A stretch of DNA of 32,000 bases. Source: an uncultured archaeon. Its GTDB lineage: Archaea; Iainarchaeota; Iainarchaeia; Iainarchaeales; JAAZKV01. Made by a program: the position numbers and the translations under genes. The notes beneath the pieces are model-generated. The model was not told where the DNA came from. It ran no database searches and worked only from the letters and a program-made list of their open reading frames with translations. This document shows positions 3,876 to 15,280 of this stretch, one piece after another; position 1 is the stretch's first letter, and the number at the start of each line of letters is the position of its first letter. The stretch is taken from assembly GCA_964551375.1 (NCBI GenBank), contig CAZKBG010000001.1, positions 630,001 to 662,000 of the forward strand, in the 5' to 3' direction.

Positions 3876-5588
3876 ATGGCAACTGATTATCTTGACGACT
3901 TAATCGGCGCAGTAAAACAAGGGGCGCAGGAAGAGCAAAAAAAAGGACAAAAACCGCAGACTCCCGCGCAGATAATCCAAAACGAGCAAAATCAGGACAA
4001 AACTCCTGAAGAAAGAGAAGAAGCGCTCGCAAAAAGCATTACTCAAAAAGAAATGAAAAACTTGAACCAGGATGTTGAAGCCGGAGATCCGAGCGAAAAA
4101 ACAAGCATTGAAAAAGAACTTGACATGCAGCAAAAAACCGAAGTAAAAAGCTATGGAAAAGTAAAAATCTATAAAATCCCCGGAAAACCTCTTGCATATT
4201 ATTTTGTTCCCACAACAAGACCCACTGCTGTTGAGCGAAAAATGATAAACACGCTCAAAGAAGCGACAACAAGACTGATCAGCATCGCGCCTTACAAAAT
4301 CAGAAACGCGGATGAAAGGAGAATTGTTTACAAACAAAAAGTAATTGAAATAATAAAAAGCAACACCACTCTAAAAATCCCAGAAAGCAAAATAAACTTC
4401 TACGCCGACGCGGTTGTAAGGGAAATGGTGGGGTATGGAATAATTGATGACTTAATCAAAGATGACTTTCTTGAAGAAATCATGATAGTCGGCCCAAAAA
4501 AACCTGTTTATGTATTCCACAGAGAATACGAAATGATGCTGACTAATATCGAATTTTTTTCAGAACAAGAAGTTGAAGACCTGATAAATAAAATTGCCCG
4601 CGAAGTAGGAAGAAGAGTAGATGTATCATCCCCGCTGCTTGATGCAAGACTTGGAGACGGGAGCCGTGTTAACGCAACAATTCCGCCCGCAAGTATTAGC
4701 GGAGGAACTGTAACTATTAGAAAATTCCGTCAGGATCCTTTTTCAATAATTGATTTAATAAGAATGGGAACACTCTCAAGCGAAGCGGCTGCGTTCTTGT
4801 GGCTCGCAGTTGAAGGAATGGGAACAAAACCTGCAAACATCCTAATCGCAGGAGGAACAGGCTCGGGAAAAACAACGCTGCTAAATGTACTGGCGTCATT
4901 TGTTCCTGACAGAGAGAGAGTAATCACAATCGAAGACACAGCTGAATTAAGTTTGCCTATAAAACACTGGATAAGACTTGAGTCAAAACCCCCAGGACTT
5001 GAAGGAACAGGGGAACTGAAAATGGATATACTCACAAAAAACTCTTTGAGAATGAGGCCTGATCGAATAATAGTTGGAGAAATCAGACATGAAGAAGCAT
5101 TCACACTTTTTACTGCAATGAACACAGGACACGACGGATGCTTGGGAACCGTGCACGCAAACAGCCCTGATGAAACGCTAATAAGATTAACAAGCCCGCC
5201 AATGAATGTTCCAAGCATTATGATGAGCGGACTTGACATGATGATAATTGAACACAGATATTATGACAGAAAAAAAGGAACGATGAGAAGAGTAAGCGAA
5301 ATCGCGGAAGTATACGGCGCGCTAAGCGGAAACCCAAAAACACAAATAATTTACCAAAGAGACCCTGCAAAAGATGTTCTTGAAAGAACGCTTGTTGACA
5401 GCGCATACCTTAAAATTATCCAAAATTTTACAGGAACATCAAAAGAAAAGATAAATGCAGAAGTGCAATCGCGAAAAATCTTCCTTGACACCCTTGTGCA
5501 AAAGAATATAAGGAACTTAAACGAAGTATCTGAGAAGGCAAAGGACTTTTTGATACAAAGAAACATTGGTGGAACTAATGACATATGA
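3876..5588 (+). CDS. type IV pilus assembly ATPase (FlaI/VirB11/GspE superfamily)
   Basis: Walker A GGTGSGKTTLLN, Asp/Walker B region RPDRIIVGEIR, His box GHDGCLGTVHAN, and the family-typical LLDARLGDGSRVNA. The N-terminal ~100 aa are Q/E/K-rich low complexity. Confidence 0.9.
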   Translation: MATDYLDDLIGAVKQGAQEEQKKGQKPQTPAQIIQNEQNQDKTPEEREEALAKSITQKEMKNLNQDVEAGDPSEKTSIEKELDMQQKTEVKSYGKVKIYKIPGKPLAYYFVPTTRPTAVERKMINTLKEATTRLISIAPYKIRNADERRIVYKQKVIEIIKSNTTLKIPESKINFYADAVVREMVGYGIIDDLIKDDFLEEIMIVGPKKPVYVFHREYEMMLTNIEFFSEQEVEDLINKIAREVGRRVDVSSPLLDARLGDGSRVNATIPPASISGGTVTIRKFRQDPFSIIDLIRMGTLSSEAAAFLWLAVEGMGTKPANILIAGGTGSGKTTLLNVLASFVPDRERVITIEDTAELSLPIKHWIRLESKPPGLEGTGELKMDILTKNSLRMRPDRIIVGEIRHEEAFTLFTAMNTGHDGCLGTVHANSPDETLIRLTSPPMNVPSIMMSGLDMMIIEHRYYDRKKGTMRRVSEIAEVYGALSGNPKTQIIYQRDPAKDVLERTLVDSAYLKIIQNFTGTSKEKINAEVQSRKIFLDTLVQKNIRNLNEVSEKAKDFLIQRNIGGTNDI

Positions 5589-6687
5589 TTCAAGCGCAAA
5601 CCACGAAGAAGTAGACCAAATACTTGAAACAATGAAGAAAAAGTACCGAAAGGAAGGAATGCAATTTGAAGAAGTATCAGGCGGATTAAAAGAACTAAGA
5701 GGAATAATTGCAGAAGACACTTACGCAAAAGAAGATATTGAAACAAAAGACGATCTTGACGCATTTAACTCAAATCTTGCAACACAACTTGGAACATTTT
5801 ACTTAAAACTAAAAAACTTTCTAAAACCGGTACAGGAAATGCTCAAAAAACTTCCATTCACCGAAGAAATCGGATACTATTTGTACTCGGCAAATATGCC
5901 TTACTCTTCAAACCAGTACCTTGCGCTGACAAGCGCAGCAGGACTTGTTGGAGCCCTTGTTGGATTAATAATTGGATTATTTGTTGGAGCGCTGCTTGCC
6001 GCAACAACACAAAACATAGCGCTTGGAGCAATTATACCCCCAGTTACTGCACTAGTGCTTGGAGTAGGAGCAACATTTGTAATGCTAATGATACCAAAAC
6101 AAACTGCGGTGTCAAGAGGAAATGCATGCTCTGTTGAGCTTCCATTTGCGCTAAGACACATGGCAACTGAACTAAAAGCAGGAATAGGACTTTACAAAAC
6201 AATACAAGCAATAACCGCAGCTGATTACGGCGTGCTAAGCGAAGAATTCGCAAGAACTATTACAGAAATTGAAGAAGGAACTGACACAAGCGTTGCGCTA
6301 AAACACTTAGCTCTAAGAACACAAAGCAAACCGCTTCGCTCAGCAATAAACCATATGCTAAGAGCAATGAGAGTGGGAGGAAATTTATCAGCAATCATGA
6401 GCGAAATTGCGGAAGACGTTTCAGAAGACTTAAAAAACAGAATCAACGCATTCGCACAGCAGATGAACTTCTTTGCAGTAGTATTTATTTTCCTATGCAT
6501 CGTACTCCCTGTTGCAATTATGATACTTGGCGCAATAAGAAACTCTCCAATAGGCTCAAGCGCGGGAGAATTATTCAAAGCAGTGCCGCTTGACCCAACA
6601 GTAATGACACTATTCTTTGTAGTAGCAATGCCAATAGTTTTTATTGTAATGAATTTAATTGTGTACATGGCACAGCCAAAGATGTGA
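5578..6687 (+). CDS. pilus platform membrane protein with a single T2SSF domain (TadB/TadC/FlaJ-like)
   Basis: One cytoplasmic T2SSF-like domain (LPFALRHMATELKAGIGLYKTIQAI...VGGNLSAIMSEIAED) is flanked by TM helices. ATG 5578 is preferred over the track's TTG 5566 and overlaps the ATPase 3' end by 11 nt. Confidence 0.8.
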   Translation: MTYDSSANHEEVDQILETMKKKYRKEGMQFEEVSGGLKELRGIIAEDTYAKEDIETKDDLDAFNSNLATQLGTFYLKLKNFLKPVQEMLKKLPFTEEIGYYLYSANMPYSSNQYLALTSAAGLVGALVGLIIGLFVGALLAATTQNIALGAIIPPVTALVLGVGATFVMLMIPKQTAVSRGNACSVELPFALRHMATELKAGIGLYKTIQAITAADYGVLSEEFARTITEIEEGTDTSVALKHLALRTQSKPLRSAINHMLRAMRVGGNLSAIMSEIAEDVSEDLKNRINAFAQQMNFFAVVFIFLCIVLPVAIMILGAIRNSPIGSSAGELFKAVPLDPTVMTLFFVVAMPIVFIVMNLIVYMAQPKM

Positions 6688-6691
6688 TTAG

Positions 6692-13941: not shown

Positions 13942-14216
13942 AAAAAGGATTTATTTTCTCAACTGAAGCAGTGGTTACAATAATAGTAATACTTGCAGTG
14001 GCATCAATATTCTCCATGCAGCAGACGGGAATAGAAAACAAAACAACAGCAATGGAAATACAAAACAATTCGCAGGAATCAGCGACGCTTTACTTTAATT
14101 TAGCTCCAACACAGCCAAATCCTTACAACAAAGAAGTTTACTGCTCGCAGGTAACAAGATACAACCAGCCGGCAAAAGTATTTGAAGACAGAAACGTATG
14201 CAGGGGATTTAAATGA
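13938..14216 (+). CDS. pilin-like protein (G|F-type leader)
   Basis: MKKG|FIFSTEAVVTIIVILAV. It has ATGA overlaps on both sides. Confidence 0.5.
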   Translation: MKKGFIFSTEAVVTIIVILAVASIFSMQQTGIENKTTAMEIQNNSQESATLYFNLAPTQPNPYNKEVYCSQVTRYNQPAKVFEDRNVCRGFK

Positions 14217-15280
14217 AAGGATTTGGAGGAATAGTAATTGCATTCGCAATAGTTGCCGCAGCGGCGCTTTTGTTAACAATAAATATCACTACAATAAATT
14301 CTTACTCGTATAAAGAAATAGTGCCTGAAGCCAAACAAACAATCGCAAACTTTGAACTTGTATTAAACCACGCTGCGGAAGACTGCAACTGGGAGCTTGG
14401 AGTGGGGCAACTGCAAAACTGCATTGACTCAAACGCGGCTTCAATACTTGCAAGAATGAACGCCACCGGCGGAGTAAAGTGCACAAAATTAAATAACGCT
14501 ATTCCAGAATCCGACCTTTACACTTACAAATTTGATGTCAACTGTTCAATTGGAACAATTACAGGAAGCAAAAGCCAGGTAAATTTACGAACAAGCAATA
14601 AAATCTTTGTCGGAAAAACAAATAAATATCATGAGCTAAAAACAACCGATACCAATCTGTTCAATGGCGTTGTCGGACTATGGCACCTAAACGGAGACGG
14701 GGCTGATTACAGCGGAAGAGAAAAACATGCAAACAGCATAACTGCAAGTTCTGCTATGGACAGAAACCAGAATCCAAACGGAGCTTATTCATTTGACAAA
14801 ACACAAGGAATTTTTATAACAAAGCCATTTGGGGCGGGATTTATCGGCACAAGCGCAACTATTTTAGTGTGGGCAAAAATGCAAAACACAGGAAATTCAA
14901 TAAAAGCCCCAATCATTGACTTTTACAACAACACTACTGGACTGCACGGCGCATCAATTGTGCAGAAAAAATCTAACGAAATAACTTTTGATTTTGGAAA
15001 CGGGGCAAATGACACAATAACATATGCAGGGCTTACTGGAAACTGGGTAAGTTTAGTTATGACATATAACCAGGCAACACTAAACACTTACATAAACGGC
15101 TCAAAAACAACAAAAGCAAAAAACGGGGCAATTATGATGAATGATTATAATTTAAACATTGGATACAGCCCAGAGGGCTCCACAAGAGATTTTAACGGAA
15201 TGATTGACGAAGTCATTATCTGGAATAGAGTGCTGACTGACAGCGAAATACAAACCCTGCTAAAAAGACAAACAGGCTAA
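14213..15280 (+). CDS. pilin-leader::LamG (concanavalin A-like lectin) fusion protein; candidate pilus adhesin
   Basis: The N-terminus MKG|FGGIVIAFAIVAAAALLL is prepilin-like. The C-terminal ~190 aa match the LamG/Laminin_G_3 pattern (LWHLNGDGADYSG...AYSFD...ATILVWAK...WVSLVMTY...LNTYINGS...FNGMIDEVIIWNRVLTDSEIQTL). Confidence 0.75.
   Translation: MKGFGGIVIAFAIVAAAALLLTINITTINSYSYKEIVPEAKQTIANFELVLNHAAEDCNWELGVGQLQNCIDSNAASILARMNATGGVKCTKLNNAIPESDLYTYKFDVNCSIGTITGSKSQVNLRTSNKIFVGKTNKYHELKTTDTNLFNGVVGLWHLNGDGADYSGREKHANSITASSAMDRNQNPNGAYSFDKTQGIFITKPFGAGFIGTSATILVWAKMQNTGNSIKAPIIDFYNNTTGLHGASIVQKKSNEITFDFGNGANDTITYAGLTGNWVSLVMTYNQATLNTYINGSKTTKAKNGAIMMNDYNLNIGYSPEGSTRDFNGMIDEVIIWNRVLTDSEIQTLLKRQTG

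What the first reader, a model, noticed from the sequence alone, without database searches (positions are those of the whole stretch)
3876..15280. An 11.4-kb EppA/DUF361-type type IV pilus locus with at least 11 pilin-like genes in a reduced archaeal genome
Seen in sequence: an ATPase, two platform proteins, a peptidase with both catalytic Asp motifs, and eleven ORFs whose N-termini fit a class III signal peptide. Each has a short basic leader ending in G or A, Q (or F) at +1, an acidic residue at +5/+6, and a helix of about 20 hydrophobic residues. No archaellum accessory genes (FlaC-H-like) are present, so this is a pilus rather than an archaellum. Q at +1 is the hallmark of substrates of the EppA-type peptidase, as established for Methanococcus pili. 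Devoting more than a third of this window to one surface filament, in an otherwise minimal housekeeping context, suggests the filament is central to the organism's lifestyle. For a DPANN-like cell that would plausibly be host attachment or substrate/DNA capture (inference).
Basis: partly seen in the sequence, partly recalled or inferred. Interest (0 to 1): 0.7.

Follow-up and report, generated by a model that had tools for sequence, protein, structure and literature searches.

The report
Epd/Tad-like type IV pilus locus

Summary
Window 3876-15280 (+ strand) encodes:
- a CpaF/FlaI-family secretion ATPase;
- two single-domain T2SSF platform proteins;
- a long-form (about 9-10 TM) A24 prepilin peptidase with both catalytic Asp;
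- exactly eleven ORFs with class III signal peptides.

A FlaFind-like rule finds these eleven and nothing elsewhere in the window, against 0.13 hits expected in shuffles.

Gene order is conserved across about 60 Iainarchaeota (Diapherotrites) genomes, including the complete AR10 genome. The cleavage motif [KR][GA]|Q-x-x-x-E is conserved in the orthologues.

The features match the Epd-like "clade 1 / system 1" archaeal pilus:
- a split platform;
- an EppA-type long peptidase;
- DUF361 (PF04021) pilins of 48-102 aa.

No archaellum genes are present.

- Three embedded non-pilin genes (a small membrane protein, a TctA-like transporter and a JAMM protease) lie inside the cluster.
- The last pilin-like protein carries a lineage-specific LamG lectin domain and lacks the acidic residue.
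- The small pilins carry the bacterial Flp "EY" motif.

A 2026 survey already reports system 1 pili in DPANN. I file this as a new member of a known kind, of modest interest. A role in host attachment remains an inference.

The parts
3876..5588 (+). Pilus assembly ATPase (CpaF/EpdL/FlaI superfamily), with a roughly 135-aa K/E/Q-rich N-terminal extension
   Evidence: Pfam T2SSE 1.9e-44. Best PDB matches: CpaF 251 bits, then AfGspE2 229, then FlaI 202. NCBIfam FlaI 283 bits against a cut-off of 550. A TATA-like TTAAATAA lies about 25 nt upstream.
5566..6687 (+). Platform protein 1, with one T2SSF domain; resembles the N-terminal half of FlaJ/UpsF
   Evidence: Pfam T2SSF 4.7e-22. NCBIfam UpsF positions 55-253 of 484. 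Four hydrophobic segments. Its start overlaps the ATPase stop.
6692..7612 (+). Platform protein 2, with one T2SSF domain; resembles the C-terminal half of FlaJ
   Evidence: Pfam T2SSF 1.4e-18. NCBIfam ArlJ/FlaJ positions 191-463 of 465, E=6.5e-23.
7609..7755 (+). Small pilin p48 (MMEERA|QVQMEMM...; mature about 42 aa). Single copy with a conserved position; probably a minor or initiating subunit.
   Evidence: Of 47 orthologues, 43 have Q+1 and E+5. It overlaps the stop of platform 2.
7783..7968 (+). Small pilin p61 (MKMEEKA|QGAIEYLL...); candidate major pilin
   Evidence: PF04021 at 28.2 bits, above the gathering score of 23.7. Followed by the strongest terminator-like hairpin of the region, 7988-8011.
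7988..8011 (+). Terminator-like hairpin (10 bp stem) with a T-rich tail, after p61
8068..8075 (+). TATA-box-like TTTAAATA, 58 nt upstream of p95
   Evidence: only 3 copies in the window, and 2 of them lie upstream of pilin genes. The motif is enriched upstream of p95 and p102 orthologues (39-62% against 0-16% for most other genes).
8126..8413 (+). Pilin p95 (MNYKG|QGAIEYLL...), with a Cys-rich C-terminal head (6 Cys); candidate major pilin. Its N-terminal half is duplicated from p61.
   Evidence: PF04021 at 28.0 bits. 153-nt repeat, 81% identical to 7772-7924.
8434..8456 (+). Terminator-like hairpin (8 bp stem) with a T-run, after p95
8508..8515 (+). TATA-box-like TTTAAATA, 39 nt upstream of p102
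8547..8855 (+). Pilin p102 (MNYKG|QGAIEYLL...), with 4 Cys in the head; candidate major pilin
   Evidence: PF04021 at 31.1 bits.
8877..9050 (+). Small pilin p57 (MEERA|QVAFEYLL...). Single copy, always directly upstream of the peptidase.
   Evidence: Present in 75 loci; 68 have Q+1 and E+5; mature length 50-59 aa.
9114..10226 (+). Long-form class III signal (prepilin) peptidase, EppA-like
   Evidence: D24 and GGD86 are invariant. About 9-10 TM plus a soluble Arc_PepC domain at about 245-340.
10227..10679 (+). Minor pilin p150 (MQRG|QTVLEFLF...)
   Evidence: AlphaFold2 model with pLDDT 88.5: helix 2-60 followed by eight beta strands, the pilin 'lollipop' topology. Present in 75 loci. Four conserved Cys, three invariant and one in >=90% of the 11 sequences.
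10682..11005 (+). Minor pilin p107 (MMNKKG|QTAFEALF...)
   Evidence: Of 57 orthologues, 52 have Q+1 and E+5. PF04021 below threshold, E=0.004.
11077..11421 (+). x114: a single-pass membrane protein with a beta-rich domain. Embedded in the locus; role unknown; not a pilin.
   Evidence: No class III motif. No Pfam, NCBIfam or PDB match. Only 28 cluster representatives in 1.84 billion proteins, nearly all about 110 aa. Faint OB-fold hints in 3 of 28 orthologues.
11418..12581 (+). TctA-family (PF01970, arCOG04469-like) polytopic membrane protein. Embedded; membership of the pilus system is not shown.
   Evidence: Pfam 99.7 bits against a cut-off of 28.9. Present in 63 loci.
12586..12948 (+). Stand-alone JAMM/MPN metalloprotease (AfJAMM type) with an intact HxHx7Sx2D motif. 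Embedded; membership of the pilus system is not shown.
   Evidence: Pfam Prok-JAB 5.1e-09. PDB 1R5X/1OI0 at 3e-13.
13023..13445 (+). Minor pilin p140 (MQKG|QLSIDLL...)
   Evidence: Of 33 orthologues, 30 have Q+1 and D+5.
13438..13941 (+). Minor pilin p167 (MNKG|QVFSTDML...)
   Evidence: All 43 orthologues have Q+1 and D+6. Its N-terminus matches a Methanobacterium 310-aa pilin (RG|QLFSLD), E=9e-5.
13938..14216 (+). Minor pilin p92 (MKKG|FIFSTEAV...)
   Evidence: Of 26 orthologues, 16 have F+1 and 24 have E+6. It matches a Methanobacterium KG|FIFTVD pilin.
14213..15280 (+). Pilin-like module (about residues 1-135; MKG|FGG..., no acidic +5/+6) fused to a C-terminal LamG/ConA-like lectin domain. 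Candidate tip adhesin.
   Evidence: Pfam Laminin_G_3 1.9e-19, residues 212-347. Orthologues are 128-151 aa and lack the extension. The full architecture is found in only 3 close proteins. None of 19 orthologues has an acidic residue.

Best explanation
The locus encodes a complete, self-contained type IV pilus of the Epd-like kind. This is the group called clade 1 by Makarova et al. (2016) and TFF 'system 1', and it is the archaeal sister of the bacterial Tad/Flp pilus.

Proposed mechanism, with shown and inferred steps marked:
1. Prepilins insert in the membrane with a short basic leader (inferred).
2. The long-form A24 aspartyl peptidase (D24, D86) cuts after [KR][GA], exposing Q (or F) at +1. 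The motif and the enzyme are shown; cleavage is inferred.
3. A hexameric CpaF-like ATPase docks on a heterodimeric platform made of two half-size T2SSF proteins and drives polymerisation (inferred from homology).
4. The shaft is built mainly from the very small Flp/EpdE-like pilins p61, p95 and p102. These have their own TATA-like promoters and terminators, vary in copy number between species, and share one N-terminal helix with different Cys-rich heads (features shown; the role is inferred).
5. The single-copy pilins p48 and p57, and the larger p150 and p107, act as minor subunits (inferred).
6. The block p140-p167-p92-LamG355 has overlapping, translationally coupled genes and forms a priming or tip complex. 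The last subunit lacks the +5/+6 acidic residue, like the tip pseudopilin GspK in type II secretion. In this lineage it displays a LamG lectin domain for binding a carbohydrate-bearing surface (inferred).

The likely function is adhesion to a surface or to another cell.
For: Core parts and motifs:
- Pfam and NCBIfam hits for the ATPase, both platform proteins and the peptidase.
- Catalytic Asp residues invariant.
- Eleven class III N-termini against 0.13 expected by chance.

Conservation:
- The order ATPase, F1, F2, p48, p61/p95/p102, p57, peptidase, p150, p107, then p140, p167, p92 and the last pilin is kept in about 60 Iainarchaeota loci, including AR10.
- It is also kept in a distant DPANN locus, L083.
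- The cleavage motif is conserved in 26-75 orthologues per family.

Epd-like features:
- Two single-T2SSF genes, the defining trait in PMC6668835 and in preprint 10.64898/2026.04.22.720090.
- A long-form peptidase, as in arCOG02300 (PMC4858521).
- PF04021/DUF361 pilins of 48-102 aa with Q+1 and E+5, as in M. maripaludis (PMC3875500).
- CpaF is the best solved-structure match for the ATPase.
- A Methanobacterium locus shows the same succession of N-terminal types next to its long peptidase: Q..LD, then FIF..D, then Y/F with no acidic residue.

Pilin fold: the p150 model (pLDDT 88.5) has a 59-residue N-terminal helix plus a beta domain.

Expression architecture: hairpins after p61 and p95, and TATA-like boxes before p95 and p102, enriched in orthologues.

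Adhesin: a LamG domain on the last subunit. A separate 649-aa LamG pilin-like protein sits at the same end of the cluster in L083.
Against: - There is no experimental evidence of cleavage, filament or binding.
- The peptidase fails the curated EppA equivalog cut-off (28.6 against 450 bits).
- No FleN/MinD/TadZ- or FlaH-like second ATPase and no DUF2341 adhesin is in the locus, although these often accompany clade 1 systems (PMC4858521, PMC6668835).
- Foldseek of the p150 model against the PDB gave no significant match (best E=0.035; pilin FimA only at rank 20).
- The LamG355 model was poor (pLDDT 51.8), so the tip-complex idea rests on sequence logic only.
- No phylogeny of the ATPase or platform was made, so placement inside the Epd-like clade rests on shared features and score ranking.
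Confidence: 0.85

Rival explanations
1. The filament serves mainly for uptake (DNA or another substrate), not adhesion. The embedded trio would act as a receptor, channel and processing module coupled to the pilus, by loose analogy with ComEA/ComEC alongside the Com pilus. The trio is x114 (membrane-anchored, possibly OB-like), a TctA-like polytopic protein and a JAMM hydrolase.
For: - The trio lies inside the pilus cluster in about 60 loci.
- In the distant locus L083 it lies directly after the cluster, so adjacency survived a rearrangement.
- The genes overlap or are 4 bp apart.
- There are faint OB-fold (tRNA_anti) hits in 3 of 28 x114 orthologues.
Against: - TctA-family arCOG04469 proteins are stand-alone genes in most archaea and are predicted carboxylate transporters (PMC5898192).
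- Other housekeeping genes (iPGM, Pelota, ABCE1, ThrRS) are interleaved with or flank the locus in the same conserved block. Synteny alone is therefore weak evidence.
- No nuclease, ComEC or DNA-binding domain was detected.
- The OB hints are not significant.
- The Methanobacterium locus lacks the trio.
Confidence: 0.06
2. The locus builds two different filaments. One is a thin Flp/Epd-type pilus from the 48-102-aa pilins. The second is a structure from the larger pilin-like proteins (p150, p107, p140, p167, p92, LamG355).
For: - The 2026 survey proposes two pilus types for system 1 because of the pilin diversity (10.64898/2026.04.22.720090).
- The pilin genes fall into blocks separated by the peptidase and by the embedded trio.
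Against: - There is only one ATPase-platform set in the locus.
- The larger proteins are single copy, lack their own TATA-like motifs (0-12%) and have overlapping reading frames. This is the pattern of low-abundance minor pilins.
- In M. maripaludis the homologous EpdA-C are minor pilins needed for the same pilus (PMC3875500).
Confidence: 0.07
3. It is an archaellum, or a non-filament pseudopilus or bindosome-like export device.
For: - The ATPase gives its highest NCBIfam score to the FlaI model (283 bits).
- p102 has a sub-threshold Arch_flagellin N-terminal hit.
Against: - The FlaI score is far below its cut-off of 550.
- There is no archaellin-sized subunit and no FlaC-H/X gene in the window or in 58 related loci.
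- No substrate-binding-protein domains sit behind the class III signals.
- The split platform and the 50-aa pilins are Epd/Tad traits (PMC6668835).
Confidence: 0.02

Closest known systems
Epd (EppA-dependent) pilus of Methanococcus maripaludis; Makarova 2016 'clade 1' and TFF 'system 1'
   Same: - Two single-T2SSF platform genes next to one ATPase.
- A dedicated long-form A24 peptidase.
- Very short major-type pilins (mature about 42-97 aa here, 54-63 aa in M. maripaludis) with a leader ending in G or A, Q+1 and E+5 (PF04021/DUF361).
- Several larger minor pilins next to the peptidase.
- A lectin or adhesin domain on a pilin-like protein.
(PMC3875500; PMC4858521.)
   Different: - All parts lie in one locus here, whereas M. 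maripaludis uses at least four loci (PMC3875500).
- No FleN/MinD- or FlaH-like ATPase, DUF2341 protein or transglutaminase is in the locus.
- The pilins carry Tyr at +6 (the EY motif), which M. maripaludis pilins lack (PMC3875500).
- The peptidase scores far below the NCBIfam EppA cut-off.
- The host is a DPANN archaeon (Iainarchaeota).
Bacterial Tad/Flp (type IVc) pilus, for example Caulobacter CpaF/TadB/TadC/Flp/TadV/TadE/TadF
   Same: - The ATPase's best solved-structure match is CpaF (251 bits).
- The platform is split into two genes.
- The pilins are 40-60 aa with adjacent Glu-Tyr at +5/+6.
- The peptidase has no methyltransferase domain.
- The larger pilin-like proteins have G|Q..(L/F)EF N-termini that recall TadE/TadF.
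- Denise et al. derive Tad from an Epd-like archaeal system (PMC6668835).
   Different: - There is no secretin or outer-membrane parts (RcpA/TadD) and no TadZ.
- The peptidase is the archaeal long form with an Arc_PepC domain.
- Pfam Flp_Fap is hit only faintly, by 2 of 50 orthologues.
- The TadE Pfam model is not hit.
Type IV pili reported in other DPANN genomes (annotation level)
   Same: Surveys already state that Diapherotrites references (Ca. Iainarchaeum andersonii, AR10) and many DPANN MAGs have type IV pili and no archaellum (PMC8561730). They also state that system 1 occurs in DPANN (10.64898/2026.04.22.720090).
   Different: In the papers I could search, I found no description of three things: this locus's anatomy, its phylum-wide synteny, and the EY motif or LamG fusion.

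Membership tests
Type IV filament (TFF) assembly system | Secretion ATPase of the T2SSE/VirB11 family | tested here: met
   PF00437 at 152 bits against a cut-off of 24.9; PDB CpaF, GspE2 and FlaI matches.
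Type IV filament (TFF) assembly system | Polytopic platform protein with T2SSF domain(s) | tested here: met
   Two adjacent genes, each PF00482 above the cut-off (78.7 and 67.5 bits against 25.2).
Type IV filament (TFF) assembly system | A24 aspartyl prepilin peptidase with two catalytic Asp | tested here: met
   PF01478 at 51.5 bits against 26.5. D24 and GGD86 are invariant. Aligned to FlaK 3S0X.
Type IV filament (TFF) assembly system | Subunits with class III signal peptides (short basic leader, G/A at -1, hydrophobic helix) | tested here: met
   Eleven ORFs against 0.13 expected. The motif is conserved in orthologues. The p150 model shows the pilin topology.
Type IV filament (TFF) assembly system | Processing of subunits and assembly of a filament | not testable with these tools
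   Needs biochemistry or imaging.
Epd-like pilus (clade 1 / system 1) | Platform split into two genes with one T2SSF domain each | tested here: met
   F1 resembles the N-terminal half and F2 the C-terminal half of FlaJ/UpsF. The criterion comes from PMC6668835.
Epd-like pilus (clade 1 / system 1) | Long-form (9-TM) EppA-type peptidase, arCOG02300 | tested here: met
   - 370 aa, compared with 375 aa for a Thermococcus arCOG02300 member.
- Eight hydropathy segments imply about 9-10 TM.
- Full-length alignment to the EppA model.
- 33% identity over 354 residues to the Methanobacterium long form, E=2e-47.
- No arCOG profile was available for a direct test.
Epd-like pilus (clade 1 / system 1) | Short major pilins of the DUF361/PF04021 type with Q+1 and E+5 | tested here: met
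   Three window pilins are above the gathering score. 44 of 50 orthologues hit at E<=0.05. Q+1 is 100% and E+5 is 94% in 126 small-pilin N-termini.
Epd-like pilus (clade 1 / system 1) | ATPase belongs to the clade 1 / CpaF-type branch (arCOG01819) | tested here: inconclusive
   The score ranking is CpaF, then GspE2, then FlaI. No tree with Methanococcus EpdL was possible.
Epd-like pilus (clade 1 / system 1) | Frequently associated FleN/MinD or FlaH-like ATPase and DUF2341 adhesins (common, not strictly defining) | tested here: not met
   None was found in the window. A LamG pilin-like protein is present instead.
NCBIfam equivalog 'prepilin peptidase EppA' (NF053826) | Whole-protein score of at least 450 bits | tested here: not met
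   28.6 bits. The Methanobacterium and AR10 long-form enzymes also fail, at 46 and 57 bits. The model appears to be restricted to Methanococcus.
Archaellum | Archaellins (PF01917) and accessory genes FlaC-H/X; FlaI equivalog | tested here: not met
   There is only a sub-threshold N-terminal Arch_flagellin hit for p102. FlaI scores 283 against a cut-off of 550. No accessory families were found.
Bacterial Tad/Flp pilus | Flp pilin family (PF04964) with the EY motif | tested here: inconclusive
   The EY motif is present in 81% of 126 small-pilin N-termini. PF04964 is hit only faintly, by 2 of 50 orthologues (best E=0.0011).
Bacterial Tad/Flp pilus | Secretin RcpA, TadD and TadZ | tested here: not met
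   No such families were found in the window. This is expected for an archaeon without an outer membrane.

The most novel reading that the evidence does not exclude
The Iainarchaeota system may be the extant archaeal pilus closest to the ancestor of the bacterial Tad/Flp pilus. It combines the following:
- a CpaF-like ATPase;
- a split TadB/TadC-like platform;
- 40-55-aa mature pilins carrying the Flp-type Glu5-Tyr6 motif that Methanococcus Epd pilins lack;
- TadE/F-like larger pilins.

If so, a DPANN-like lineage living attached to other cells would be a plausible donor of Tad to Bacteria. Separately, the conserved x114-TctA-JAMM trio could be a new accessory module of this pilus.
Probability: 0.1. 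Interest if true: 0.6.

Novelty: new member of a known kind. Interest (0 to 1): 0.3.

Why it matters
Iainarchaeota have genomes of about 1 Mb and no cultured member, so their surface machinery is one of the few clues to how they live. This locus gives a compact, single-operon-like and phylum-wide conserved version of the Epd/Tad-type pilus, with:
- clear candidates for shaft, minor and tip subunits;
- a lineage-specific lectin head that could point to what the cell binds.

It also extends the long-form EppA-type peptidase and DUF361 pilins beyond the class I methanogens and Thermococci, where Makarova et al. (2016) found them. It adds a Flp-like EY motif, which bears on the proposed archaeal origin of bacterial Tad pili. 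None of this overturns current views. It refines them and supplies a tractable minimal model locus.

Tried and rejected
- Foldseek of the confident p150 model against the PDB gave no significant match (best E=0.035; pilin FimA at ranks 20 and 40 with TM 0.26-0.31).
- The LamG355 model, built from 6 sequences, was poor (pLDDT 51.8; the N-terminal helix was not even formed). I did not use it for fold search.
- PDB sequence searches gave nothing for p61 or for the x114 profile.
- The NCBIfam EppA and FlaK equivalog cut-offs are not met by any long-form peptidase tested, so they cannot settle membership.
- A PADLOC scan of the embedded trio and the orphan ATPase gave only weak generic JAB hits and a weak mad8 hit. 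I rejected a defence role.
- An exhaustive search with x114 found only about 110-aa lineage-specific relatives and no informative fusions.
- Pairwise BLAST of p167 and p92 against the Methanobacterium pilins found similarity only in the first 22-29 residues. Orthology of the globular parts is therefore not shown.
- The sigma-70 promoter scan does not apply to an archaeon. I used only its terminator-like output.
- Literature searches for TctA plus JAB in archaea, and for Iainarchaeota pili, returned nothing specific.

Full report
WHAT IS THERE

Between ThrRS/ProRS (533-3789) and ABCE1 (15320-17071), the + strand carries 20 closely packed genes. Most gaps are 0-75 bp and several start and stop codons overlap.

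Pfam and NCBIfam identify the machinery:
- a T2SSE ATPase at 3876-5588;
- two proteins with one T2SSF domain each, at 5566-6687 and 6692-7612;
- an A24 peptidase with archaeal C-terminal domains, at 9114-10226.

The peptidase has D24 and GGD86 invariant among 13 homologues down to 30% identity. These residues align with the catalytic regions of FlaK, PDB 3S0X.

Eleven ORFs have a leader of 3-7 residues ending in [KR][GA], followed by Q (nine ORFs) or F (two ORFs) and a hydrophobic helix. One of them is a 48-aa ORF at 7609-7755 that an ordinary length cut-off would miss.

A FlaFind-like rule applied to every start codon in all six frames returns these eleven plus one internal Met of a membrane protein. 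It returns nothing else in the 32 kb. Codon-shuffled windows give 0.13 hits on average.

WHOSE IT IS

The peptidase's relatives are labelled Candidatus Iainarchaeum, Diapherotrites or 'archaeon'. The identical protein lies on a 946-kb NCBI contig. A scan of species-representative genomes returned 80 loci. These are almost all Iainarchaeota and include the complete AR10 genome.

CONSERVATION

I used phmmer with the window proteins against all ORFs of those loci. This showed the following order in about 60 loci:

ThrRS, ATPase, F1, F2, p48, one to four of p61/p95/p102, p57, peptidase, p150, p107, x114, TctA, JAB, p140, p167, p92, last pilin, ABCE1.

About 30 of them have no unassigned ORF of 80 aa or more inside the cluster. 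No archaellum accessory gene is hiding in any of these. The same families in the same order occur in a more distant DPANN contig, L083.

The N-terminal motifs are family-specific and conserved:
- [KR][GA]|QxxxE in p48, p57, p61, p95, p102, p150 and p107;
- QxSxD in p140;
- QxFSxD in p167;
- FxFSxE in p92;
- F with no acidic residue in the last pilin.

CLASSIFICATION

The literature gives three traits for the Epd-like group (Makarova's clade 1, TFF system 1):
- Two platform genes with one T2SSF domain each (PMC6668835; preprint 10.64898/2026.04.22.720090).
- A dedicated 9-TM 'long form' peptidase, EppA, arCOG02300 (PMC4858521).
- Very short DUF361 pilins with a leader ending in Gly, Q+1 and E+5 (PMC3875500).

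All three are present here.
- F1 aligns to the N-terminal half and F2 to the C-terminal half of FlaJ/UpsF models.
- The peptidase is 370 aa with about 9-10 hydrophobic segments. It aligns end to end with the NCBIfam EppA model.
- The peptidase is also 33% identical over 354 residues to a Methanobacterium enzyme. That enzyme's neighbours are Q+1 pilin genes with the same succession of N-terminal types.
- Three window pilins pass Pfam PF04021, and 44 of 50 orthologues hit it.

The ATPase's best solved relative is the Tad ATPase CpaF at 251 bits, ahead of A. fulgidus GspE2 (229) and FlaI (202).

The one failed test is the NCBIfam EppA equivalog cut-off (28.6 against 450 bits). The Methanobacterium and AR10 enzymes fail it too, so the model is simply narrow.

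ANATOMY AND LIKELY WORKING

The variable set p61/p95/p102 looks like the major subunits.
- p95 and p102 have TATA-like TTTAAATA boxes 58 and 39 nt upstream. These are two of only three copies in the window.
- p61 and p95 are followed by the two strongest terminator-like hairpins of the region.
- TATA-like motifs are enriched upstream of the ATPase and of these pilins in orthologous loci: 38-62% against 0-16% for other genes.
- p61 and p95 share a duplicated N-terminal half, 153 nt at 81% identity, but have different heads. p95 and p102 are Cys-rich.

p48 and p57 are single copy with fixed positions.

p150 gave a confident model (pLDDT 88.5) with a 59-residue helix and a beta domain. This is the pilin topology, although Foldseek found no significant PDB neighbour.

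The last four pilin-like genes overlap one another. The final one lacks the acidic residue in all 19 orthologues. From established knowledge of type II secretion, where the tip pseudopilin GspK lacks Glu5, I infer that this subunit sits at the tip.

In this window the final subunit carries a C-terminal extension of about 220 aa with a LamG/ConA-like domain (Pfam 1.9e-19). That extension is absent from orthologues of 128-151 aa, and only three close proteins share the architecture. L083 has a separate 649-aa LamG pilin-like protein at the same end of its cluster. Recurrent placement of a lectin fold there fits a tip adhesin.

- Genes 11077-12948 are not pilins. They are a small single-pass membrane protein, a TctA-family membrane protein (99.7 bits) and an AfJAMM-type metalloprotease with an intact HxHx7Sx2D motif.
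- One of the eleven pilin-like ORFs has no acidic residue.
- The host-attachment idea is untested.

COMPARISON AND NOVELTY

Type IV pili in DPANN, including Diapherotrites references, are already noted at annotation level (PMC8561730). The 2026 TFF survey states that system 1 occurs in DPANN. This is therefore a new member of a known kind.

Points that may be new:
- The whole system is consolidated in one locus, against at least four loci in M. maripaludis (PMC3875500).
- The synteny is phylum-wide.
- Tyr at +6 (the Flp 'EY' motif) occurs in about 90% of p57/p61/p95/p102 orthologues, whereas M. maripaludis pilins lack it (PMC3875500).
- The LamG fusion is lineage-specific.
- The x114-TctA-JAMM trio is embedded in the cluster.

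The embedded trio remains unexplained. Its adjacency to the pilus genes survives a rearrangement in L083. However, TctA-like arCOG04469 genes are generally stand-alone predicted transporters (PMC5898192), and other housekeeping genes are interleaved in the same block.

Noticed in passing
window 11077-12948 (+); L083 15661-17497: A trio is embedded between two blocks of pilin genes in about 60 Iainarchaeota loci. It consists of a lineage-specific 114-aa single-pass membrane protein, a TctA-family membrane protein and an AfJAMM-type JAMM protease, with overlapping or 4-bp-spaced genes. In a distant DPANN locus the trio lies directly after the pilus cluster. I found no explanation for a transporter-like protein coupled to a JAMM protease.
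   Followed up: partly
window 22258-23787 (-): There is a second FlaI/GspE2-like secretion ATPase (509 aa). Its best PDB match is A. fulgidus GspE2, 2OAP, at 240 bits, and its NCBIfam FlaI score is 270 against a cut-off of 550. No platform, peptidase or pilin gene lies beside it. Its neighbours are TYW3 and the CCA-adding enzyme. Its partner and role are unknown.
   Followed up: partly
window 7783-9050; orthologues in L002-L081: The small pilins read [KR][AG]|Q-x-x-x-E-Y-L-L. Glu5-Tyr6 is the bacterial Flp motif. It is present in about 90% of p57/p61/p95/p102 orthologues and is reported absent from M. maripaludis Epd pilins.
   Followed up: partly
window 7772-7924 and 8109-8261: A 153-nt direct repeat, 81% identical, covers the ribosome-binding region and the N-terminal helix of p61 and p95, whose C-terminal heads differ. 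The number of such paralogues varies from 1 to 4 between species. This suggests modular head variation on a constant helix.
   Followed up: partly
window 14213-15280: The last pilin-like gene is a fusion of a conserved module of about 135 aa (with conserved Cys) and a LamG domain. Orthologues in other species stop at 128-151 aa. Only two other proteins in the 5.8-billion-protein set share the architecture.
   Followed up: yes
window 20720-21514 (-): A 264-aa protein with an N-terminal signal-like sequence and a hydrophobic C-terminus has no Pfam or NCBIfam hit. It is conserved near the locus in 7 relatives and may be a surface protein.
   Followed up: no
window 28877-30475 (-) and 30558-31577 (-): Two sizeable ORFs (532 and 339 aa) have no Pfam hit at E<=0.001. 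The second ends in GGGVRCF, which recalls the catalytic Cys of guanidino-modifying enzymes (from memory, not tested).
   Followed up: no
L047 9992-13570: In one Iainarchaeota genome (NC_groundwater_457) the long peptidase is retained next to ThrRS and the x114-TctA-JAB trio. The ATPase, platform and pilin genes are missing from that position. They are either relocated or lost.
   Followed up: no
L082 14037-15587; L037, L051, L046, L055 and others: In more divergent Iainarchaeota, a gene for cofactor-independent phosphoglycerate mutase is inserted between the JAB gene and the second pilin block. The block therefore tolerates housekeeping genes inside it.
   Followed up: partly
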